A stretch of 64,000 bases of DNA from Rickettsia typhi. Its GTDB lineage: Bacteria > Pseudomonadota > Alphaproteobacteria > Rickettsiales > UBA1997. The stretch lies in the NCBI GenBank assembly GCA_945865905.1, contig CAMBFC010000002.1, positions 119,505-183,504 of the forward strand. Reading direction: 5' to 3'. This document shows, one piece after another, positions 7,656 through 44,042 of the stretch (position 1 is the stretch's first letter; each line of letters starts with the position of its first letter). Below the pieces are notes generated by a model. It saw nothing but the letters and a program-made list of their open reading frames with translations, was not told the DNA's origin and ran no database searches. A program made the translations under genes and the position numbers.

Positions 7656-8552
7656 ATGAGGTATTTTTCTAAACTATCCAATAATTCCAAGGCTATATTT
7701 TTTGCCATTTTAACCTGTTTCTTGGTTTCGATCCTTATAGCAATTGTTCGCCATTTATCAGGGCACTTTCATGTGTTTTTTATTGTGATGATGCGCAATT
7801 TTTTTGCCTTTGCTTTTTTTATTCCACTAATGATCAAAAACCCGCGCCAATTGTTTAAAACTAAAAAAATACATTTGCATTTTTTGCGCAATTTAAATGG
7901 CTTGGTGGCAATGCTTATATGGTTCTACACCATTACATTAATTCCGCTGCCAGAAGCAGTTTCTTTTACTTTTATTGTGCCAATTATTACAACCTTAGCG
8001 GCAATGTTTTTTTTAAAAGAAAAAGTTCATGCTAGAGTTTGGACCGCTCTGGCAATAGGTCTAATTGGCATTATCGTTATTATTCGCCCCGGATTTCATG
8101 AATTTAAACTGGCTTATTTATTAGCAATTATTACAACATTTTTATGGTCAATTTCTAATATTTTAGTCAAGATGATGACCGACACTGATAAGCCCGAAAC
8201 CATTGTTGCCTATATGTCTTTCATCATGTTAGTTTTATCAATTCCGCTTGGAATTATGCATCCTGCCAGCATGAATTTTTCTGATATTTTTTGGTTGGCG
8301 ATGCTGGGGCTTTTCTCAAATCTATCTCATATGGCAATGTCTACCGCCTATTCAAAAGTTGATTTATCTGTGGTGCAGCCCTTTGATTTTACTCGCTTAA
8401 TCTTTACCTCAATCATCTCTTATTTTGTCTTTGGCGAATCTTTAGACTTTTGGTCAGGATTTGGAGCCTTAATAATATTGTTCGGAACAATTTTCGTTGC
8501 CCCTAAGAGAAAAAGAAAATATGATCCACTAACAAAAAACAATGAGGTTTAG
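7656..8552 (+). CDS. DMT/EamA family transporter
   Basis: About 10 TM segments with two EamA halves; IIIRPG, VVQPFDFTRLIF. Confidence 0.85.
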   Translation: MRYFSKLSNNSKAIFFAILTCFLVSILIAIVRHLSGHFHVFFIVMMRNFFAFAFFIPLMIKNPRQLFKTKKIHLHFLRNLNGLVAMLIWFYTITLIPLPEAVSFTFIVPIITTLAAMFFLKEKVHARVWTALAIGLIGIIVIIRPGFHEFKLAYLLAIITTFLWSISNILVKMMTDTDKPETIVAYMSFIMLVLSIPLGIMHPASMNFSDIFWLAMLGLFSNLSHMAMSTAYSKVDLSVVQPFDFTRLIFTSIISYFVFGESLDFWSGFGALIILFGTIFVAPKRKRKYDPLTKNNEV

Positions 8553-8613
8553 AGATTTTATATTGAATTAATAAAATTCAAAACTCTCTGAATCTTAACA
8601 AATATTATTTTAA

Positions 8614-9792
8614 ATGAATTATAGCGAGTTATTTCACAACTCAATAAACAAATTACGCGATGAAAATCGCTATCGTCAATTTGTCAACATTTCTCGCCTA
8701 AAGGGCAATTTTCCTTACGCCACCAATAATCACAATAGTCGCAAAATCACATTATGGTGCTCCAACGATTATCTTGGTATGGGGCAAAATGAAGATGCAA
8801 TTAACGCTGCAATTAACGCACTAAAAGACTATGGGGTTGGATCTGGAGGCACTCGTAATATTTCTGGCAACAATAATTTATTAGTTAAGTTAGAAAAAAC
8901 AGTCTCATCTTTGCATAAAAAAGAAAACGCTCTCTGCTTTGTTTCTGGCTATGTTGCCAATGATGCAACCATTCAGGCTTTGGCCAAAATTATTCCTGAT
9001 TTGGTTGTTTTTTCTGATGCCAAAAATCACGCATCAATCATCAGCGGCATTAGAAACAGCAAGCTTGAGAAACATATTTTTCGTCACAACGATGTTGAGC
9101 ATCTCGAAGAATTACTGCAAAAATTTACAACAGAAAAACCAAAAATAATCATCTTTGAATCAGTCTATTCAATGGATGGTGACTTTGGAAAAATTAGTGA
9201 AATTGCCGCTCTTGCTAAAAAATATAATGCCTTAACTTATGTTGATGAAGTTCATGCTGTTGGGCTTTATGGCAATACTGGCGGCGGTTTATGTGAAGAA
9301 CTTGGTCTTGAATCTCAAATTGATATAATTCAAGGAACCTTTGCCAAGGCTTATGGCTGCATAGGCGGATACATTACTGGCAAACAAGAAATTATCGATG
9401 CGGTGCGGCTGCATGCCGCTGGATTTATTTTTACAACCTCACTTCCGCCCTCTATTTGCGCCTCTATAATCACTAATATTAATCACTTAAAATCAAGCTC
9501 TAAAGAAAGAAAAATTCATCAAGAAAAAGTTGCTACATTAAAAAATGAGCTAAAAAAAGCTGGGATAAGAATCGTTGAGAACCAATCGCACATAGTATCC
9601 ATAGTAATTGGTGATGCAAAAAAAGCTGAAGAAATTTCAGCGCAGTTACTCAAAGATTTTGATATTTATGTACAACATATTAATTATCCAACAGTGGCAA
9701 AAGGCGATGAGCGCCTAAGAATAACAGTCACACCACTGCATAGTGATGAAATGATTTTGGGATTATTGAAGGCACTAAAAGCAAGCTTCTAA
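8614..9792 (+). CDS. hemA: 5-aminolevulinate synthase
   Basis: WCSNDYLGM, GSGGTRNISG, DEVHAVGLYG, GTFAKAYG (PLP lysine), INYPTV...ERLRIT. Confidence 0.97.
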   Translation: MNYSELFHNSINKLRDENRYRQFVNISRLKGNFPYATNNHNSRKITLWCSNDYLGMGQNEDAINAAINALKDYGVGSGGTRNISGNNNLLVKLEKTVSSLHKKENALCFVSGYVANDATIQALAKIIPDLVVFSDAKNHASIISGIRNSKLEKHIFRHNDVEHLEELLQKFTTEKPKIIIFESVYSMDGDFGKISEIAALAKKYNALTYVDEVHAVGLYGNTGGGLCEELGLESQIDIIQGTFAKAYGCIGGYITGKQEIIDAVRLHAAGFIFTTSLPPSICASIITNINHLKSSSKERKIHQEKVATLKNELKKAGIRIVENQSHIVSIVIGDAKKAEEISAQLLKDFDIYVQHINYPTVAKGDERLRITVTPLHSDEMILGLLKALKASF

Positions 9793-9797
9793 ACAAA

Positions 9798-10262
9798 TTA
9801 ATTGCCCTTAACCACATCAATAAAATCGCGCAAAATCACGCTAGCCGCAATATCATCAAAATGTTTCTGTTTTTTGCGCGAAGATATAGAATGCGATATT
9901 TCCTTTGCCTCAAAACTTGTCAACCTTTCATCAGCAAAAAAAATCTGCACCGATCCACCAAGAAATTTATCTAGTTCATCAGCAAATTTTTGAGTAAATC
10001 GCGACATTTCGTTAAAAGTACCATCCATATTGATTGGAAAGCCCATCACAATTGCAATCGCCCTCTCTTCTTTAAAAATATGAGCAATTTCGGCAAAATC
10101 CTTCTCGTTGCTTTGTCGATTGATAATTTTTTTTGGCGTTGCAAGAAAGCGCAATTCATCACAAACTGCTATGCCTAGGCGCTTGGTGCCAACATCTATA
10201 GCAAGCAATTTGCCTTGACTTGGCATGGATTTGTGGAATAATGCGTGATCTTTTATAATCAT
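9798..10262 (-). CDS. ruvX: YqgF/RuvX family pre-16S rRNA nuclease
   Basis: LAIDVGTKRLGIA, VMGFP, DERLTS, DDIAASVIL. Start reassigned to ATG 10262. Confidence 0.92.
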   Translation of the reverse strand: MIIKDHALFHKSMPSQGKLLAIDVGTKRLGIAVCDELRFLATPKKIINRQSNEKDFAEIAHIFKEERAIAIVMGFPINMDGTFNEMSRFTQKFADELDKFLGGSVQIFFADERLTSFEAKEISHSISSRKKQKHFDDIAASVILRDFIDVVKGN

Positions 10263-35549: not shown

Positions 35550-37013
35550 ATGTCAGATATTACAAAATTATCCATCAAGCAAAGTCTTGAAGGCCTTAAA
35601 AATAAACAGTTCAGCGCCGTTGAATTAACTTCGGCCTATATTAAAAATATTGAAAATAACCGTCGCTTAAATGCATTTATTACTGATAGTTTTGATACTG
35701 CTTTAGTACAAGCAAAACAATCTGATACAAACATTGCAAATGGCGTATTTCGTGATCTTGAAGGCATTCCACTTGGCATAAAAGATTTATTTTGTACCAA
35801 AAATATTCGCACCACTGCTGCCTCAAAAATGTTGGCAGATTTTGTGCCAACTTATGAATCAACCGTTACACAAAAACTTCTAGATGCAGGCGCATCAACG
35901 CTTGGCAAGCTTAATATGGATGAATTTGCGATGGGATCATCCAGTGCTACCAGTTTTTTTGGCCCAACAATTAATCCTTACAAAGCTAATAATTCAGATG
36001 AAGATCTAGTGCCGGGAGGCAGTTCTGGTGGTTCTGCGGCTGCAGTTGCTGCAAATTTATGCGCGGGGGCCACTGGCTCCGATACAGGCGGCTCTATACG
36101 CCAACCCGCATCATTCACTAACACCGTTGGCATAAAACCTACTTATGGCCGCTGCTCGCGCTATGGCATGGTTGCCTTTTCAAGCTCGCTAGATCAAGCC
36201 GGAATCTTTGCTAAAGATGTTTATGATGCTGCGCTTTTACAAAGAATAATCTCTGGTTTTGATATCAAAGATTCTACCTCAAAAAACATTGCGGTGCCAC
36301 AATTTGAAAAGCTTCTCACCCCTAACATTAAAGGTAAAAAAATCGGTATACCAAAAGAATATCGCGTTGATGGAATGCCTGCAGAAATAGAAAAACTATG
36401 GGATCAAGGCGCTACAATGCTCAAAGATCACGGCGCAGAAATTGTCGAAATTTCACTACCCCACACTAAATTTGCCCCTGCAGTTTATTATGTTTTGGCC
36501 TCTGCTGAATGCTCATCAAACCTTGCTCGCTTTGATGGCGTGCGCTATGGCTATCGCTGCAAAGATGATGGCTTATCACTCAATGAAATGTATGCCAGAA
36601 CCCGCGCTGAAGGCTTTGGCAATGAAGTAAAAAAACGCATTTTGGTTGGCACTTATGTTTTATCATCAGGATATTATGATGCTTATTACAAAAAAGCCCT
36701 GCGCGTGCGCAATTTAATCGCTCAAGATTTTAAAAATGTCTTTGGCAAAATTGATGCAATACTTGCTCCAACTACTCCCAACGCAGCTTTTCCGCTTTCG
36801 CAAACAAAAAATCCTGATCCGATAAAAATGTATCTTAATGATGTATTTACAATTCCGGCAAGTTTAGCGGGATTACCAACGATGTCTGTGCCAGCTGGCC
36901 TTAATGAGCAAGGTCTTCCAATGGGATTGCAAATTATCACTAATATTTTTGACGAACAAACCATGCTAAATATGGCATTGGCAATTGAAGAAACCGTCAA
37001 ATGCGCAAAATAA
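35550..37013 (+). CDS. gatA: Asp/Glu-tRNA amidotransferase subunit A
   Basis: [41 protein letters not shown]. Confidence 0.98.
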
Positions 37014-38695
37014 TTAATATTCTCAATAAAGGTTTTGGTGCTGATTTATTGGCAATCATAGCTCTTGTTGGATCAATATTAACTGCACAATATATCGCCG
37101 CCGCTTTATTGGTTTTTATGCTGCTTAGCGGCAAAGCTCTCGAAAAATACGCTTCACGCAAAGCCTCTTCTGTGCTTGAGGCTCTAGCAAAAAGGGTTCC
37201 ATCAATTGCCCATCTGCGCAACAAAAACATTATCACCGAAATCGCCATTACTAAAATTGTTATTGGCGATGAAATCGTCATCTATCCCCACGAAACCTGC
37301 CCCGTTGATGGCAGCATCATTGAAGGCAGCGGCACAATGGATGAATCTTATCTTACTGGCGAACCTTACCAAATTTTAAAAACCGTTGGATCGCTTGTGC
37401 TATCTGGCGCCATCAATGGTGATAGCGTCATCGTGATTCGCGCCGAAAAACTGGCGCAAGATTCACGCTACGCCAAAATTATGGAAGTAATGAAAGAGGC
37501 CGAAGAACGCCGCCCCCACTTGATGCGCCTCGCTGATGAAATCGGTGCAATCTTCGCTCCAATCGCATTAATTTTTGCCGCCGCCACTTGGTATTTTAGC
37601 GGCGATGTTTTGCGGTTCATCGCTGTGCTTACAGTGGCAACGCCTTGCCCGCTATTGATCGCCATTCCAATTACTGTTATTGGCGCGATTTCTTTAGCAG
37701 CAAAAAATGGTATTATTATCAAAGATCCAACCGCGCTAGAACGCCTACCCACCTGCTCCACCGCGATTTTTGATAAAACCGGCACGCTAACTTATGGCGA
37801 ACCAAAATTAACTGAAATCATTGTCGCTCAAGGCTTCGCAGCCAATGATATTTTGCAAAAAACCGCCAGCTTAGAACGCTATTCGCGCCACCCATTAGCC
37901 ATTGCAATCAAAAATGCATTAGAAGAAGAAAAGCTAGAATTATTAGAAGCCACCGAGGTATCAGAGCGCTCTGGGCAAGGCTTGCGCGGCATTGTCTCTG
38001 GCCAAGAAATAATGATCACCAGCCGCAATAAAGTTCTAAAACAAGATCCACAACTAGCCTCAATCATTGCGGTTAGCGGCTCTGGCCTAGAATGTATAAT
38101 TATGATTGATCAAAAATATGCCGCAACTTTAAGATTTCACGATGCTCCGCGAGCAGACAGCCATTCATTTATCAACCATTTAGGACCTGAGCATAATTTT
38201 AAAAAAGTGATTTTACTTTCTGGCGATAGAGAGTCAGAAGTCAATTATCTAGGGGCTTTGCTCGATATAAAACAAACTTACGCCTCGCAAAGCCCTGAAC
38301 AAAAACTTGAGTTTGTTAAAAATGAAACCGCCCTTGCCCCTACTCTATTCATGGGTGATGGCATTAATGATGCACCAGCACTAACTGCCGCAACTGTTGG
38401 CCTTGCCTTTGGGCAACATAACAACATCACCTCTGCAGCCGCTGGCGCTGTGATTCTAGAGAATACTCTAACTAAAGTTGATGAGTTAATTCATATTAGT
38501 ATTGCGATGCGAAAAATCGCCCTGCAAAGTGCTGGGGGAGGAATGCTATTAAGTTTAGTGGGTATGGGTTTCGCCGCCGCAGGAATGTTATCACCCGCTC
38601 AAGGTGCGCTGTTGCAAGAAATTATTGATGTAGTCGCAATTTTAAATGCGCTGAGGATTACTTGGAGTGTGAAGGTTGTTAGTGATGTAAAATAG
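37001..38695 (+). CDS. Heavy-metal P1B-type ATPase (P1B-5-like), apparently lacking the first TM segments
   Basis: [34 protein letters not shown] in the last TM. Confidence 0.85.
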
Positions 38696-38696
38696 G

Positions 38697-38723
38697 GGAA
38701 TGGTTGCGGGGGCTGGATTTGAA
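38697..38723. repeat. att direct repeat: copy of the tRNA-fMet 3' end
   Basis: ggaatggttgcgggggctggatttgaa, identical to 42727-42753. Confidence 0.93.
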
Positions 38724-38962
38724 ATGGGCTCGTTAGGCCTTGATATTGCTGGATCTGAATTTTGGCTGTACATGGTTTTGTGCATTAAAAATTCTTAACT
38801 TCTCATTTAGCGGGTTTAAATTTGGCTTCAGTTATAAATAAAATATTAGCCCGAGTTTGATTTATGGTTTGTAAAAAGAGTGCACCTTAATTTGCTTCTT
38901 AAATATTTTTAACAATTGATTTATGGTAAGTTTTTAGATAACATCCCCTATTCAGTATCAAT

Positions 38963-39949
38963 TTAAACTATTGCAGATGGATAAGGTTTATAACTATACT
39001 GACAACCACTTTTCTTTAGGCTATCTAAAAAATCAGAAAATTTCTCATCAATATTAACTTTATTAGGTTTGATTAGTGGGATAATTTCAGCAAATTTTAC
39101 CCAGCTTGAACCAGCGATTTTGGCAAACACTGTATTGATTTTTTTTATGTCCTCACCGACCTCAATTTCCAATACTCCATGATAAAATTTTAACCAGATC
39201 CAACCATTAACATAGCTATCTCTAAAAATTCTGGAATTCTTAAAGTCCTCCATGGAAACATAATCAGCAGCGTACAAAAAAATACTGGCATTAAAAATTA
39301 TCTCAATATCACTAAAATCATCACTATTTTCTGATGACGACTTGTAATCATTATAGTCATCAGATAATAACCCAGCACTACTAATATAAGTGGCAATCTC
39401 CTCCACAAATTTCAAATCTTTACTGCTTATCTTGCTTAATGCATCTATCGTAATTAAAGAAAAAGACCCTTTATTAACTATCTCTCCCGCCATTAATTTA
39501 GCCCAAAAATCACGAACATCCTCATCTGAAATATTTTTTATTTTGTCAAGAATTGTTAAAAATTTTGTGCTGCCAAAATTAGGTATATCGCAATCCTCTT
39601 CAATTTGCTTTACAGCCTTAATTACCACACTTGTCATATTCAGGGATTGCTGCCTTCTTATGCCTTCTATTGTATGTTCTTCGATTTTGCTGCATGCATC
39701 AAATATGGATAAGCCCTGAGAAAGAGAGACTTTTAAAAAAGCCTGAATAATCTTTTTATTGCGCTCAGAATTATCCGTCTTGTTTTTAAGAAGCAAAGAT
39801 TCAGCTACGACTTCTAAATCACTTTCGCTTGGATCAATAGGGCCTCTAAGTTCCGCAGAAAATTTGCCCCATGCAATTTTTTTAATTTTATAAAATATTT
39901 TAGGAATATTTCCAATTAAATTGAAAAATTTTTTTATATATTTATTCAT
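38963..39949 (-). CDS. DUF2806-like protein
   Basis: RRQQSLNM, NISDEDVRDFWAKLMAGEIVNKGSFSLITIDAL resemble the DUF2806 core as I recall it. Confidence 0.65.
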   Translation of the reverse strand: MNKYIKKFFNLIGNIPKIFYKIKKIAWGKFSAELRGPIDPSESDLEVVAESLLLKNKTDNSERNKKIIQAFLKVSLSQGLSIFDACSKIEEHTIEGIRRQQSLNMTSVVIKAVKQIEEDCDIPNFGSTKFLTILDKIKNISDEDVRDFWAKLMAGEIVNKGSFSLITIDALSKISSKDLKFVEEIATYISSAGLLSDDYNDYKSSSENSDDFSDIEIIFNASIFLYAADYVSMEDFKNSRIFRDSYVNGWIWLKFYHGVLEIEVGEDIKKINTVFAKIAGSSWVKFAEIIPLIKPNKVNIDEKFSDFLDSLKKSGCQYSYKPYPSAIV

Positions 39950-39968
39950 AATTCGATCGCAAAAATGT

Positions 39969-40637
39969 TTAGTTACTTTTTTTCCATCTCACAAACTCAT
40001 CAGCATTTGAAAAAATCTCTTTTAATATTTCAGCAGATTTTTTTATCCCGCCCCAATATTCAAAATTAGTTTTTTCATCAGGATGCTCCTGATGATGACC
40101 TCTTATCGCCATTCCAAGAGGATAATCATCTAACTCAATTTCAATATCATTTCTTAGTCTGTAAATTAATTCCTGTATATGACTTAACTCCTTACTAGTA
40201 TATGATTTTACAACTTTTTTCTGATCTTTCTCCCTTATTTTTTCAGAAGAAAGATTTCCCTCTTTCTTCTTGGGAGTTCCTAATATCAAATATCGGGTTG
40301 ATTCGTTATATTTGGAGTATTCTTCCAAATGCTTAATTTTATCTTTTTTATAAAAATTATATTTTTCTTCATTTGGTAATCGTAGAGCAAGTTCTTTTAA
40401 ATTATGACCCCAATGTGGTATATAAGGGTTTCCGGCACTATTTTTTGGCAAATGATCATTTTTATATTCTTGATCTGTATCAATTAATAAAACTTTTAAA
40501 TATTTTTCTATTGCTTGAGCAAAATGATAGTAGGACGGTAAATGAAGATGATATTTCCACAAAACCGCTGCAGCGAGCAAATCATTGTCCGCATCAAATA
40601 TTAGAGTAAGTTTGTTAGATGGTCTATTTTTTGTCAT
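39969..40637 (-). CDS. HEPN-domain protein
   Basis: YHFAQAIEKYLK, GHNLKEL, TRY are classical HEPN signatures; an RGHHQEH (Rx5H) lies near the C-terminus. Confidence 0.7.
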   Translation of the reverse strand: MTKNRPSNKLTLIFDADNDLLAAAVLWKYHLHLPSYYHFAQAIEKYLKVLLIDTDQEYKNDHLPKNSAGNPYIPHWGHNLKELALRLPNEEKYNFYKKDKIKHLEEYSKYNESTRYLILGTPKKKEGNLSSEKIREKDQKKVVKSYTSKELSHIQELIYRLRNDIEIELDDYPLGMAIRGHHQEHPDEKTNFEYWGGIKKSAEILKEIFSNADEFVRWKKSN

Positions 40638-40807
40638 AACTATATTTTTGTTAAAAATCTACAGAGCCATTGTGCTCAAACAGTCAGATGAAAATTATGG
40701 AAAGCGTCATTGGAACAACTAACATAATGGTATCAATTATCATCAATTTAAGGATATAACTGATACAATAATATCTTTTATTACCGATAGTTATACCTAC
40801 CTGATAA

Positions 40808-42061
40808 CTAAATTTTATTCGCCCTCTCCAAATCCTCATGCTCAAAAGCAGAAGACATCCGCTCAATTTCTTTTTTTCTTAAGTTAAAATTTTTAGCTAC
40901 CTCGCGCCATTTAGCAGTCGATTTTGCAACTTCTTTAATAATTTTATTCGCTTCATTTTTATTTAATCTGAAGTTTTCAGAGACCGAGAGCGCAGTTTCT
41001 AATGAGGCAGAGTTATTATTGAAATCGATTGCAGTCGTTAGGATTCTAGGTTTTATTTCAGTTGGTGTTGGGTTAAGGTCATAAGCGGGAGAAAGTCTCC
41101 AACCCTTTTGGCTTTCATAAAGAAATCCGTGATTACGCAAGTGATCATCCGTATTCGAAATTAACACATTAAAAACTATACGCCTCCATAGTTGCTTCAT
41201 ATCTTCATCGGGTGCTGCTCCATATTGCGCTAAAGCATCAGCAATTTCGAGATAGCTGTGTTGCTCATTATCTCTTGCTTGCAACATGCTCATAGCCGAA
41301 AGAAAAGGAATGCGGATTTTTTTGATCCGATCAAAACGCTTAACAATCAAAACTGGCTTTTTGTTAATTTTTTCTAAACTAAATGAAGGCGTTGTGATTC
41401 CTGCATTTTTTGCCAAAGTCAGAGCAACTGCTTCCCATTTTTCTATTTCAAATTCGTCATCTTTTCTTGGAAATTTCGCAATTGCAAGATTGCCATTTTT
41501 ATCAAGCACTGATGATTTAGGCCTCGCACCTCCAAGAGAAGAGCCGGGAGCTAAGAGTAGCTTTAGGTCTTGAGAATTTTCCTTATCGTCAACAAACTTT
41601 TCCGAAGCAGCAAGAAGTTTTGGCAAATCTATTAATGGCGGGATGGATTGTTTGTCTTTCGGGCTTAAAAAATCACCATCAATTTTTTCAGAAAAACGCA
41701 GCGCACCTTGACGCAATTCATCACTTACACCAAGCAGATAATCAGCTTCACTCAAACTGCGAGCCGTTTCTTTTTCATTTTTTGCGCGTCTGCTTTCAGC
41801 TCTTCGCATTAAAACTCTTCCCCAACGATCAGGTGCAGAATCGCCAATTGCACCAAAAATATCTTGATTAATTCCAGTGTGAAATACTCCCTCAGTAAGC
41901 TTCAAAGCCGGTTCAAGTGCAAATCTCTCAGGATAAACAAGCCAGCTTTTATCATATTCAAAAGAAGCGCTCTCTTTACCTCTTTTGGAGTGAAACCAAA
42001 GTCTGCCAATAAAAATATTATTTTCGCCTAAAGCGATGTGGACAAAAATTTCTCTACTCAT
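40808..42061 (-). CDS. hipA: HipA-family Ser/Thr kinase toxin
   Basis: SFEY N-terminal domain, GSSLGGARPK, IAKFP, NTDDHLRNHGF, LSPAYDLNP. Confidence 0.92.
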   Translation of the reverse strand: MSREIFVHIALGENNIFIGRLWFHSKRGKESASFEYDKSWLVYPERFALEPALKLTEGVFHTGINQDIFGAIGDSAPDRWGRVLMRRAESRRAKNEKETARSLSEADYLLGVSDELRQGALRFSEKIDGDFLSPKDKQSIPPLIDLPKLLAASEKFVDDKENSQDLKLLLAPGSSLGGARPKSSVLDKNGNLAIAKFPRKDDEFEIEKWEAVALTLAKNAGITTPSFSLEKINKKPVLIVKRFDRIKKIRIPFLSAMSMLQARDNEQHSYLEIADALAQYGAAPDEDMKQLWRRIVFNVLISNTDDHLRNHGFLYESQKGWRLSPAYDLNPTPTEIKPRILTTAIDFNNNSASLETALSVSENFRLNKNEANKIIKEVAKSTAKWREVAKNFNLRKKEIERMSSAFEHEDLERANKI

Positions 42062-42383
42062 TTGTTATTGTTATTTTTCTTGATCTAATTCTTTTAGGTA
42101 AATTCTCTTCATCAATTTGTCTTCCAACTAAATCATGATTAGAATCAACTAAATCAGAAATTCTACTTATCATCCCAAGCACAAACAAAACTGATACATA
42201 GTTACCCATTGATGTTGTTGGATCACCTTTTTCAATTTTCGCTAAAGTACCACGCGAAATTCCAGCGCGCTCTGCCATTAATTTAGTTGCAATACGACGA
42301 CGGCGACGAGCTTCAGAAATATCCTCACCAATTTTTCGTAACGCTTTTGTAACCGGAATAGGTAATTCTAATGTATTTTTCAT
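42054..42383 (-). CDS. hipB: XRE-family HTH protein, HipB-like antitoxin
   Basis: ARRRRRI...MAERAGISRGTLAKIEKGDP; overlaps the hipA start by 8 bp. Confidence 0.8.
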   Translation of the reverse strand: MKNTLELPIPVTKALRKIGEDISEARRRRRIATKLMAERAGISRGTLAKIEKGDPTTSMGNYVSVLFVLGMISRISDLVDSNHDLVGRQIDEENLPKRIRSRKITITNE

Positions 42384-42420
42384 AAAAAATATAAGGTCTT
42401 ATTTAATAGGCAATATGAGT

Positions 42421-42459
42421 TATAATGACTATTATATAAAGCATTATGCTTTAATGCAA
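42421..42459 (-). promoter_or_regulatory. sigma70 promoter of hipBA with a palindromic candidate operator
   Basis: TTGCAT(42454-59)-N17-TATAAT(42431-36); AAAGCAT-T-ATGCTTT at 42438-42452; TATAAT-gact-ATTATA at 42421-42436. Confidence 0.6.
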
Positions 42460-42726
42460 TAAAAATTCTTAATATTTATAGGTCATTTATACATGAAAAA
42501 TTCATACCATGCAAAATTTACTTATTTTTACAGAGTGTCATGAAGCATCTAGAATCAAGGCTTTAGAGGCTTATAATGGAGCCAAAAATGACATTTTCGT
42601 ATATGGTTTTGTACATGGAAAATTTTTGGATTCAGGCGAAATTAGCTGGATTTCTTTGGAAAGAGGAATGGCCATGAAGCCTCTCGTGCGTAGAATTATC
42701 GGACTTTATTGGATTTCTTTGAAAGT

Positions 42727-42753
42727 GGAATGGTTGCGGGGGCTGGATTTGAA
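42727..42753. repeat. att direct repeat within tRNA-fMet
   Basis: Identical to 38697-38723. Confidence 0.93.
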
Positions 42754-42807
42754 CCAACGACCTTTAGGTTATGAGCCTAACAAGCTACCGGGCTGCTCTA
42801 CCCCGCG
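42731..42807 (-). tRNA. Initiator tRNA-fMet (CAT)
   Basis: CGCGGGGTAGAGCAGCCCGGTAGC...GGCTCATAACC...GGTTCAAATCC...CAACCA; C1:A72 mismatch; encoded CCA. Confidence 0.95.
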
Positions 42808-42845: not shown

Positions 42846-44042
42846 TTAGTTTGCTCTAACCTCAATCACCTTATCAATAGCGCGAAGCCTCGCCAAATCT
42901 GCTTCATCGAGCAAATAATTTTCTGGCAATGCAACATTGGCTTTTTTATCACCCATCTCTACCACAAAAATTACTTTGGTTTTTTTAGCAAAACTTGCCG
43001 GCGCCAAAAGCTGTGAAAGCACGGTTTTAGAGGTTAGAATAGGATCTCGTTCTTTAACAAAAATTTGCACTTCACTAAAAATTTTTTTCGCTTCAAGCTT
43101 CTCGAGCTTTTGTTTGTAATGGTCTACGACTGGCGCGGCTTTTGCAAAATTATTGCCAGAAGAATTTTCTCCGCCCTTATTATAATTATTTTCTCCACCT
43201 TTATTATATCCCCCACCCCCGCCAAACCTGCGCTGCGGTTGTTTTTTAATATCCTCAAAAGGCTCTTTTGCCGCCTTCACATTTTTGATAAAATCAGCTA
43301 ATTTTTGCACATCACGAATCAAAATCCGCACCCCCCCATCATCTTTTTTTATCAAACACTCAATCACAACTTGGCTGCCATCAACTAATATATCGCGAGC
43401 GTTGGTAATTATAGCTTCGTCAAAAATCATCGCTTCAAAAATCCCCAGCGGATCAGAAATTGTCATATAGGCAAAACGACCGCGCGGCCCCGATCTGTGC
43501 TTGCTGCCAGCAATTACTCCCGCCATTTTTATCAGATTACTATCTTGCAATTCATCTTTCTCAATCTTCTCAGAGAAGACTACGCCTCGCTTCTTAAGCT
43601 CTAACAAGTGATCATCAAGCGGATGTTCGTTCAAAAAAAATCCAAAAGCATCGAACTCTTTTTGTAGACGCTCTTCCTTTGTCCAATCTGCAACTTTTTT
43701 AAGCTCGGGCTTAGATTTTGCTTCATCGAGAAGCTCTCCAAACATGCTCATTTGATTGCTTGAAGCTTCATCTTTTTTTTGATTTGCGGTGGCTGCAATC
43801 AGCTCAAATGATTCAAAAATTTGACGACGATTATCGGCGATAGAATCTAGCGAGCCAGATTTGGCAAGGGCTTCGATTGATTTTTTGTTTATTGCTTTTG
43901 CATCCATTCTGATTGCAAAATCATGAACATCTTTAAATTTTCCTGCTGATTTTCTTTCTGCAACTGCCGCTTCCATCATGCCCAAACCCACGGCTTTAAT
44001 GCCTCCAAGACCAAATCTGATTGCGTATTTTTCTTGCGTCAT
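42846..44042 (-). CDS. dnaE: C-terminal fragment (about 398 aa) of DNA polymerase III alpha: HhH, OB fold and CTD only
   Basis: AIRFGLGGIKAVG, INKKSIEALAKSGSLD, NQMSMFG clamp-binding motif, EFDAFGFFLNEHPL, MAGVI...FAYMTISD. No PHP or palm domain upstream. Confidence 0.85.
   Translation of the reverse strand: MTQEKYAIRFGLGGIKAVGLGMMEAAVAERKSAGKFKDVHDFAIRMDAKAINKKSIEALAKSGSLDSIADNRRQIFESFELIAATANQKKDEASSNQMSMFGELLDEAKSKPELKKVADWTKEERLQKEFDAFGFFLNEHPLDDHLLELKKRGVVFSEKIEKDELQDSNLIKMAGVIAGSKHRSGPRGRFAYMTISDPLGIFEAMIFDEAIITNARDILVDGSQVVIECLIKKDDGGVRILIRDVQKLADFIKNVKAAKEPFEDIKKQPQRRFGGGGGYNKGGENNYNKGGENSSGNNFAKAAPVVDHYKQKLEKLEAKKIFSEVQIFVKERDPILTSKTVLSQLLAPASFAKKTKVIFVVEMGDKKANVALPENYLLDEADLARLRAIDKVIEVRAN

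What the first reader, a model, noticed from the sequence alone, without database searches (positions are those of the whole stretch)
38697..42753. Integrase-less mini-island at initiator tRNA carrying only toxin or defence-type genes
A 27-bp repeat of the tRNA-fMet 3' end brackets about 4 kb holding hipB, hipA, HEPN and DUF2806-like genes on one strand. No integrase is present, so it is either a decayed element kept by addiction or a non-autonomous cassette mobilised in trans.
Basis: partly seen in the sequence, partly recalled or inferred. Interest (0 to 1): 0.7.

Follow-up and report, generated by a model that had tools for sequence, protein, structure and literature searches.

The report
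Integrase-less island remnant at initiator tRNA
A 4-kb piece of foreign DNA behind the only initiator-tRNA gene of this small Rickettsiales-type genome is a mobile defence island that has lost its integrase but kept both recombination sites. This is a familiar kind of relic, traced here to its intact relatives.

Summary
A 30-nt direct repeat (29/30 identical, 27 exact) lies at 38694-38723 and 42724-42753. It consists of the last 23 nt of tRNA-fMet plus 7 nt, and it brackets hipB, hipA, a HEPN-like gene and a DUF2806 gene. No integrase or integrase remnant lies inside.

The island is a deletion derivative of a family of islands specific for tRNA-fMet. Intact members in related genomes carry a P4-type integrase next to the tRNA, a primase, and defence systems (Hachiman, Qat). 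Besides the core, the window keeps a tandem ATGTACA motif on each side, at the same distances as in the integrase-bearing relatives; I read these as arm-type integrase sites.

One relative still holds the first ~20 integrase codons at the junction. A metagenome contig has exactly the window's junction, in a tandem array.

The island DNA is 83-91% identical across hosts whose core genes are only 68-77% identical, so it has spread horizontally. The own genome (98% complete) has no cognate integrase, and insertion sequences disrupt hipA or DUF2806 in other samples. No empty site was found.

The closest known kind is the cis-mobilizable element (CIME). This scan has noted similar integrase-less islets at tRNA-fMet in other phyla.

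The parts
42731..42807 (-). Initiator tRNA-fMet gene, the only one in the genome. Its 3' 23 nt were supplied by the element (attL).
   Evidence: C1:A72 mismatch; the other two CAT tRNAs (C4, C7) have paired ends
42724..42753 (.). attL core: the tRNA-proximal copy of the 30-nt repeat (23 nt of tRNA 3' end plus 7 nt)
38694..38723 (.). attR core: the displaced original tRNA 3' end. It abuts the TAG stop (38693-38695) of the P1B ATPase gene.
42599..42616 (-). Arm-type site on the attL side. In tRNA orientation it reads ATGTACAAAACCATATAC, about 115 nt 3' of the tRNA.
   Evidence: Same motif at the same distance in G001, G017, G031, G034, G033, L105 and L106
38768..38785 (-). Arm-type site on the attR side. 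In tRNA orientation it reads ATGCACAAAACCATGTAC, 44 nt inside the distal core.
   Evidence: Conserved in six elements. These are the only two copies in the own genome.
42486..42730 (-). attL spacer, homologous to the tRNA-to-integrase spacer of integrase-bearing islands. Homology stops about 38 nt before their integrase ATG.
   Evidence: 78% identity to G034 C1
42474..42485 (.). Integrase-deletion junction (GACCTATAAA|TATTAAG in tRNA orientation). L105 has the identical junction. G033 has 129 extra nt here, including the integrase 5' remnant.
40685..42474 (-). 1.79-kb hipBA cassette: hipB 42054-42383 and hipA 40808-42061 (8-nt overlap), with promoter and 3' tail. It recurs as one block in other tRNA-fMet islands.
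   Evidence: 85-89% DNA and 93-95% HipA identity in G031, G032, G033, L105
39969..40637 (-). 222-aa HEPN-like cargo gene (all-helical; no conserved Rx4-6H motif)
38963..39949 (-). 328-aa DUF2806 cargo gene
   Evidence: a DUF2806 single-gene defence system (Belisama) is described in bioRxiv 10.1101/2024.07.02.601686
41956..41960 (.). Site of an IS (DUF772/DDE) insertion into hipA in other samples of the same species (5-bp overlap of the two contig ends)
39382..39386 (.). Site of a second IS insertion, in the DUF2806 gene, in other samples (GROS21-1)
37001..38695 (+). Chromosomal flank: heavy-metal P1B ATPase, full length as in G004 and not truncated by the insertion
42846..44042 (-). Chromosomal flank on the tRNA 5' side: stand-alone gene for the DnaE C-terminal part. 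Its position is conserved in relatives, including G031.

Best explanation
The 4.0 kb between 38724 and 42723 is a degraded, integrase-less member of a family of integrative islands. These islands use a P4-type tyrosine integrase (arm-binding N-terminal domain) to insert into the T-loop-to-CCA end of the initiator tRNA gene.

Intact members have this order: tRNA, arm site, integrase, small genes, primase-helicase, defence and toxin-antitoxin cargo, arm site, displaced tRNA end.

In the window's lineage a deletion removed everything from just upstream of the integrase start codon to the left edge of a hipBA cassette. What remains is attL core plus arm site, hipBA, a variable cargo slot (here the HEPN-like and DUF2806 genes), and arm site plus attR core.

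Shown:
- the repeat, the conserved arm motifs, and the homology of the spacer;
- the integrase stub in a sister element, and the identical junction elsewhere;
- tandem arrays at the same tRNA;
- island identity well above core identity;
- absence of a cognate integrase in this genome;
- IS hits in the cargo genes in other samples.

Inferred:
- The ATGTACA repeats are the integrase's arm-binding sites.
- The integrase-less form moved between lineages after the deletion. The likely route is a helper island's integrase acting in trans, or accretion next to a helper followed by co-excision, as described for CIMEs.
- In this genome the element is now fixed in place and slowly decaying.
- hipBA acts as an ordinary HipA-kinase/HipB-repressor toxin-antitoxin pair.
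For: Repeat, tRNA and genes.

Intact relatives:
- Integrases next to tRNA-fMet in G001, G017, G031 and G034 have Arm-DNA-bind_3 + Phage_int_M + Phage_integrase domains.
- Their islands carry Prim-Pol/DUF3987 or RepB-primase, plus Hachiman (HamA 7e-110, HamB 1e-301) and Qat (QatA 2e-265, QatC 1e-173).

Recombination sites:
- The arm motif is conserved on both sides at fixed distances.
- It occurs nowhere else in the own genome.

Deletion history:
- The G033 element reads MPRIQRKFSNREIKETKLKG-stop where the relatives' integrases read MPKINRKLTDREIKEAKPKDK.
- The window equals the G033 form minus 129 nt, and L105 has exactly the window's junction.

Horizontal spread:
- Island segments are 83-91% identical in DNA to G031, G032, G033, G034 and L105.
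- Flanking core genes of those hosts are 68-77% identical to the own genome.
- The nearer relative G004 (core ~80%) has other cargo and no repeat.

Accretion: tandem arm-core-arm junctions lie behind tRNA-fMet in L105 and L106.

No helper: the best match in the own genome to the family's integrases is 27-28% identical (C1:169.7 kb), and no ATGTACA arm motif occurs anywhere in the genome outside the island.

Decay: IS insertions in hipA and DUF2806 in other samples.
Against: - No excised circle or empty site was seen in any contig of the species, and reads could not be examined. Mobility of this copy is therefore untested.
- Horizontal spread after integrase loss rests on identity contrasts from a few kb of flanking core genes per host. 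It also rests on the parsimony of a shared junction.
- Homologous recombination through the conserved tRNA/att ends could give the same pattern without any integrase.
- Each of the window's two arm sites differs from the consensus half-site by one base.
- Binding of the integrase to the motif is inferred from conservation only.
Confidence: 0.75

Rival explanations
1. Purely vertical relic. The island integrated once in an ancestor, lost its integrase, and has only been inherited and eroded since. The shared junction then reflects common descent, and the high island identity reflects slow evolution or gene conversion.
For: All conspecific samples carry it at the same site, and none shows an empty site. 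IS hits show decay. No helper integrase is present in the genome.
Against: The island is 83-91% identical between hosts whose flanking core genes are 68-77% identical. The chromosomal flanks differ on both sides in G033, G034 and L105. The closer relative G004 lacks it, and G003 has no island. Non-coding att spacers would not be expected to evolve more slowly than core coding genes.
Confidence: 0.17
2. Currently active hitchhiker. The cassette is excised and moved today in this organism by an integrase encoded elsewhere in the genome.
For: attL, attR and both arm sites are nearly intact. One P4-type integrase with an arm-binding domain exists at C1:169.7-170.9 kb.
Against: That integrase is only 27-28% identical to the tRNA-fMet family. 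The ATGTACA arm motif occurs nowhere in the genome outside the island, so none lies near that integrase. No empty site or alternative location appears among about nine samples.
Confidence: 0.05
3. The island is retained because hipBA makes its loss lethal (addiction).
For: hipBA is intact in the window, with kinase motifs (GGARPK, DDHLRNHG) present. A HipAB pair stabilises a tRNA-linked genomic island in Shewanella (PMC8978831).
Against: hipA is split by an IS at 41956-41960 in at least two assemblies, and contigs break there in three further runs, yet the rest of the island is unchanged. Without an integrase, loss would require rare recombination between 30-nt repeats, so no addiction is needed to explain retention.
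Confidence: 0.1
4. The integrase-less configuration spread by homologous recombination through the conserved tRNA/attL and attR/hipBA sequences (allelic replacement of resident islands), not by site-specific recombination in trans.
For: tRNA-fMet is 95-97% identical across hosts. The att spacers and the hipBA cassette provide 0.1-1.8 kb of 80-90% homology. The cargo between hipBA and attR differs among window, L105, G031 and G033, which points to recombinational mosaicism.
Against: The flanking homology on the attR side is short (~90 nt). Tandem arrays with complete arm-core-arm junctions show that site-specific integration next to resident elements does occur.
Confidence: 0.2

Closest known systems
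Cis-mobilizable elements (CIMEs) and accretion arrays at tRNA genes (definition in ICEberg 2.0, PMC6323972; review of IMEs, PMC5704250)
   Same: Both have lost the genes for integration and transfer but retain attL and attR. Both are related to autonomous elements with the same att sites. Tandem arrays with a second element are seen at the same tRNA in L105 and L106.
   Different: Classical CIMEs derive from conjugative ICEs of Firmicutes. Here the parent is a P4-type integrase/primase defence island without conjugation genes, in small Rickettsiales-type genomes. Mobilisation has not been demonstrated.
P4-like satellite or integrative islands with P4-type integrase and primase that carry anti-phage hotspots (from my own knowledge: Rousset et al. 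2022, not read here)
   Same: In the intact relatives: an integrase with an arm-binding domain next to a tRNA, a Prim-Pol/DUF3987 or RepB-type primase, and variable defence cargo (Hachiman, Qat, hipBA).
   Different: No capsid-hijacking or P4 regulatory genes were identified. The target is tRNA-fMet. The window copy has neither integrase nor primase.
HipBA type II toxin-antitoxin modules on genomic islands (Shewanella GI21/CGI48, PMC8978831)
   Same: An HTH antitoxin gene overlaps a HipA kinase gene, and the pair is carried on an island at a tRNA gene.
   Different: A stabilising role is not supported here: hipA::IS variants keep the island. Here the cassette behaves as a 1.8-kb block found at different positions in related islands.
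Integrase-less islets at tRNA-fMet noted earlier in this scan in other phyla (e1-1127335, e1-1456228, e1-813897)
   Same: Small foreign segments behind the initiator tRNA, bounded by a copy of its 3' end, with no integrase and with defence-type cargo.
   Different: Those are on unrelated DNA. Here the parent integrase family, the arm sites and the deletion junction could all be identified.

Membership tests
CIME-like integrase-less island | Bounded by attL and attR produced by site-specific integration | tested here: met
   30-nt repeat (29/30 identical), plus conserved arm motifs on both sides
CIME-like integrase-less island | No integrase/excisionase and no transfer genes inside | tested here: met
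   Only four ORFs, none with recombinase or transfer domains; tblastn finds no integrase remnant
CIME-like integrase-less island | Shares att sites with autonomous, integrase-bearing elements | tested here: met
   G001, G017, G031 and G034 islands have the same core, arms and spacer
CIME-like integrase-less island | Excision or transfer when a helper integrase or element is supplied | not testable with these tools
   Tandem arrays occur in L105/L106 and the junction is shared across hosts, which is suggestive.
CIME-like integrase-less island | Parent element is a conjugative ICE | tested here: not met
   The parent islands carry integrase, primase and defence genes. No relaxase or T4SS genes were seen in the regions examined.
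tRNA-integrating island of a P4-type tyrosine integrase | Integrase gene adjacent to the target tRNA | tested here: not met
   Absent in the window. Present in relatives, with a 20-codon stub in G033.
tRNA-integrating island of a P4-type tyrosine integrase | Variable presence among relatives and atypical composition | tested here: met
   G004 has other cargo and G003 has none. Island GC is 33.3%, against 36.9% for the genome and 40-44% for the flanking genes.
HipBA type II toxin-antitoxin | HipA_C kinase domain with catalytic loop, preceded by an overlapping HTH antitoxin gene | tested here: met
   HipA_C E 2.7e-51; Couple_hipA domain; DDHLRNHG motif; hipB HTH; 8-nt overlap
HipBA type II toxin-antitoxin | Toxicity of HipA and neutralisation by HipB | not testable with these tools
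   Needs expression assays
HEPN (PF05168) | Pfam score above the gathering threshold | tested here: not met
   20.8 bits against a 22-bit cut-off
HEPN (PF05168) | Conserved Rx4-6H motif | tested here: not met
   No invariant R...H pair in the 15-sequence alignment
HEPN (PF05168) | HEPN four-helix fold | tested here: inconclusive
   Model pLDDT 81. The best target-normalised matches are HEPN proteins 1ufb, 2q00, 2hsb and 1wol (TMt 0.58-0.65), but all have E > 0.5.
DUF2806 (PF10987) | Pfam score above the gathering threshold | tested here: met
   36.9 bits against 24.5, covering profile positions 11-100 of 221; 681 remote relatives

The most novel reading that the evidence does not exclude
Integrase-less mini-islands of this family may be true hitchhikers, not dead relics. 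In this reading they are minimal att-arm-cargo-arm-att units, with a hipBA block and an exchangeable slot for defence-type genes. They would be moved between lineages of small-genome, probably intracellular Rickettsiales by the integrases of full-size tRNA-fMet defence islands, much as non-autonomous transposons ride on autonomous ones.
Probability: 0.35. Interest if true: 0.55.

Novelty: new member of a known kind. Interest (0 to 1): 0.35.

Why it matters
For this genome, the result settles the annotation of a 4-kb block next to the single, essential initiator tRNA gene.

More broadly, it documents a family of tRNA-fMet-specific islands with a P4-type integrase. These islands carry Hachiman, Qat, hipBA and other defence genes in uncultured Rickettsiales-type bacteria with 1.4-1.7-Mb genomes.

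The family offers a clear series of stages: intact island, integrase stub, clean integrase-less form, tandem array, eroded remnant. This series could be used to test whether integrase-less islands are mobilised in trans.

It does not reveal a new kind of mechanism.

Tried and rejected
- Integrase remnant inside the island. A permissive tblastn with the G001 and G017 integrases gave only noise.
- Cognate integrase in the own genome. There are four tyrosine recombinases. Two (C19 and C9) were not examined further. The only P4-type one is 27-28% identical to the family, and no arm motif occurs anywhere in the genome outside the island.
- Empty site. Exact-protein look-ups of the ATPase and DnaE-C flanks in about nine samples always returned the occupied site. 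Contig ends at the tRNA are uninformative, because tRNA sequence is shared between species.
- HEPN plus DUF2806 as an obligate pair. Close homologues of each occur without the other. The only other joint occurrence is the eroded copy of this same island in G034.
- PADLOC hits. There were none for the HEPN-like or DUF2806 proteins.
- attP-like pattern in viral contigs. No hits.
- Non-coding RNAs in the island. Rfam finds only the tRNAs.
- Third partial repeat at 42442-42470. I first took it for another arm site. It is the left end of the hipBA cassette and is not conserved as an arm motif.
Full report
**Observation**

ARAGORN and Rfam find a tRNA-Met(CAT) at 42731-42807 on the minus strand. It reads CGCGGGG...CCCCGCAACCA, so it has the C1:A72 mismatch of bacterial initiator tRNAs. 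The other two CAT tRNAs of the genome (contigs C4 and C7) have paired ends. This is therefore the single initiator tRNA gene.

The repeat finder reports a 30-nt direct repeat at 38694-38723 and 42724-42753 with one mismatch; 27 nt are exact. Twenty-three of these nt are the T-loop-to-CCA end of the tRNA. The remaining 7 nt lie just downstream. The 23-nt core occurs only at these two places in the 1.49-Mb, 98%-complete genome.

Four ORFs lie between the copies, all on the tRNA's strand:
- hipB, 42054-42383
- hipA, 40808-42061, HipA_C E 2.7e-51
- a 222-aa HEPN-like protein, 39969-40637
- a 328-aa DUF2806 protein, 38963-39949

The distal repeat touches the TAG stop of a full-length heavy-metal P-type ATPase gene. 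The tRNA's 5' side is flanked by a stand-alone gene for the C-terminal part of DnaE, then bacA. There is no recombinase domain and no detectable integrase remnant inside the island.

**The family the island belongs to**

Many relatives carry a partial second copy of the tRNA-fMet 3' end 12-62 kb from the gene. In G001, G017, G031 and G034 the gene next to the tRNA is a ~400-aa integrase with Arm-DNA-bind_3, Phage_int_M and Phage_integrase domains, i.e. the P4 type. It is followed by a primase-helicase (RepB primase/AAA_25, or Prim-Pol/DUF3987). Cargo follows:
- G017 carries Hachiman (HamA 7e-110, HamB 1e-301), a Ppl-like ATPase and a hipBA pair.
- G031 carries Qat (QatA 2e-265, QatC 1e-173), DUF6088 and a hipBA pair 93% identical in protein to the window's.

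These are tRNA-fMet-specific defence islands.

**Recombination sites are retained in the window**

A tandem motif, TTTTTTcATGTACAAAAC(a/c)ATGTACA, lies about 115-127 nt 3' of the tRNA. It lies again 42-55 nt inside the distal core. This holds in the window (42599-42616 and 38768-38785), in all four integrase-bearing islands, and in further elements, while the surrounding sequence diverges. In the own genome the motif occurs only at these two places.

In a circular form the two copies would flank the core. That is the layout of arm-type sites bound by the N-terminal domain of such integrases. This assignment is an inference from position and conservation.

The 245 nt between the tRNA and position 42486 are homologous to the tRNA-to-integrase spacer of G034 (78% identity). 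The homology stops about 38 nt before that integrase's ATG.

**How the integrase was lost**

In G033 (an uncultured Rickettsiales MAG) the same attL spacer is followed by MPRIQRKFSNREIKETKLKG-stop. This is recognisably the start of the family's integrase (MPKINRKLTDREIKEAKPKDK...). The hipBA cassette follows.

The window has the same right-hand junction (TATTAAG...) but lacks 129 nt that include this stub. A metagenome contig, L105, has exactly the window's junction. The simplest history is one deletion that removed the integrase and everything up to hipBA, followed by a second small deletion.

**Evidence for horizontal spread**

Island segments compared with the window:
- G033: 83-88% identical (attL spacer, hipBA, attR region).
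- L105: 87% over 2.1 kb.
- G031 and G032: 85-86% (hipBA cassette).
- G034: 87-91%. This is an eroded copy behind a second tRNA-fMet, holding the hipA 3' end, the HEPN 3' end and an intact DUF2806 gene.

The flanking core genes of those hosts are only 68-77% identical to the own genome, and the chromosomal neighbours differ.

The nearer relative G004 (core ~80%) has the same flanks but different contents at this site. It holds a PrrC-like AAA_13 protein and a hipBA pair only 25% identical, with no repeat. G003 has a core gene directly after the tRNA.

The island therefore arrived horizontally. The shared deletion junction suggests that the integrase-less form itself moved.

A pattern search for arm-core-arm found four metagenome contigs:
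- In L105, the integrase-less hipBA mini-island (3.6 kb) sits between the tRNA and a second, ankyrin-gene element.
- In L106, a 10-kb element with a truncated integrase occupies that position in front of the same second element.

Such tandem arrays are what the accretion model for cis-mobilizable elements predicts (definition: PMC6323972). Homologous recombination through the conserved ends remains an alternative route.

**Present state in this species**

The own genome has four tyrosine recombinases. Two (on C19 and C9) I did not examine further. One is a P4-type integrase at C1:169.7 kb that is 27-28% identical to the tRNA-fMet family. No ATGTACA arm motif occurs anywhere in the genome outside the island. 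I conclude that no cognate helper is present.

Exact-protein look-ups show the same island at the same site in about nine metagenome samples. None shows an empty site.

In several samples the cargo is disrupted:
- An IS (DUF772/DDE transposase) sits in hipA at 41956-41960.
- A second IS sits in the DUF2806 gene at 39382-39386.
- Another insertion lies near 39531.

This is decay. It also argues against retention through hipBA addiction, although HipAB does stabilise an island in Shewanella (PMC8978831).

**Cargo**

HipA has the expected kinase motifs (GGARPK, DDHLRNHG) and overlaps hipB by 8 nt. The 1.79-kb cassette recurs as one block at different positions in related islands.

The HEPN-like protein belongs to a small family of 16 sequences. 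It scores below Pfam's threshold and lacks a conserved Rx4-6H motif. Its model (pLDDT 81) only weakly resembles solved HEPN proteins.

The DUF2806 protein is a divergent family member. A preprint reports a single-gene DUF2806 defence system, Belisama (10.1101/2024.07.02.601686).

The two genes are not an obligate pair, since each occurs alone elsewhere. The stretch between hipBA and attR holds different genes in L105, G031 and G033, so it behaves as a cargo slot.

**Verdict**

This is a CIME-like, integrase-less derivative of a P4-type-integrase island family, now locked in place and eroding. It is a new member of a known kind. This scan has already noted integrase-less islets at tRNA-fMet in other phyla. 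What this case adds is that the parent family, the arm sites, the deletion junction and the intermediate stages are all identifiable.

Noticed in passing
window 42846-44042 (-); own genome C14:~7743-10261: dnaE is split. A 398-aa gene for the C-terminal part (HHH_6, OB fold) follows bacA next to tRNA-fMet, and an 843-aa open frame holding the polymerase core lies on another contig. The C-terminal gene is conserved in this position in G001, G003, G004, G005 and G031.
   Followed up: partly
window 42731-42807 (-): The initiator tRNA has A29:U41 in the anticodon stem, so it has only two of the three G:C pairs that are usually conserved. The G034 copy shows the same.
   Followed up: no
L071 7095-7379 (G032): tRNA-fMet is followed after 185 nt by a second 28-nt copy of its 3' end, a 0.2-kb 'island' with no gene. 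Next come hipBA (93% HipA identity), HigB-like/HTH-M78, Mrr, a second hipBA and a FAST/RAP-domain (eukaryote-like) protein, all without an integrase.
   Followed up: partly
G034 C1:7474-69434 and C11:19584-19660 (L098, L099, L045): This relative has two initiator tRNA genes. One has an integrase-bearing region of up to 62 kb. The other has the eroded hipA'-HEPN'-DUF2806 remnant and a long palindromic element after DUF2806.
   Followed up: partly
L106 441-1274: The integrase of the tRNA-proximal element is truncated after the central domain (277 aa, no catalytic domain). This is another stage of integrase decay in the family.
   Followed up: no
own genome contig ends (C1, C3, C8-C10, C13, C15, C17-C20): The tails of the IS-interrupted contigs match sequences at the ends of many own-genome contigs. 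At least two multi-copy IS families therefore break this assembly.
   Followed up: partly
window 40717-40780 vs L039 18002-18065: A 64-nt stretch (80% identity) in the hipA-HEPN spacer also occurs just 5' of tRNA-fMet in G017, outside its island. It may be a small dispersed repeat.
   Followed up: no
L035 4304-9028 (G004): At the same tRNA-fMet/ATPase site the closest relative carries a PrrC-like AAA_13 protein (PADLOC PDC-S06, 3e-59) and a distant hipBA, with no att repeat. The site is a hotspot for defence-type cargo.
   Followed up: partly
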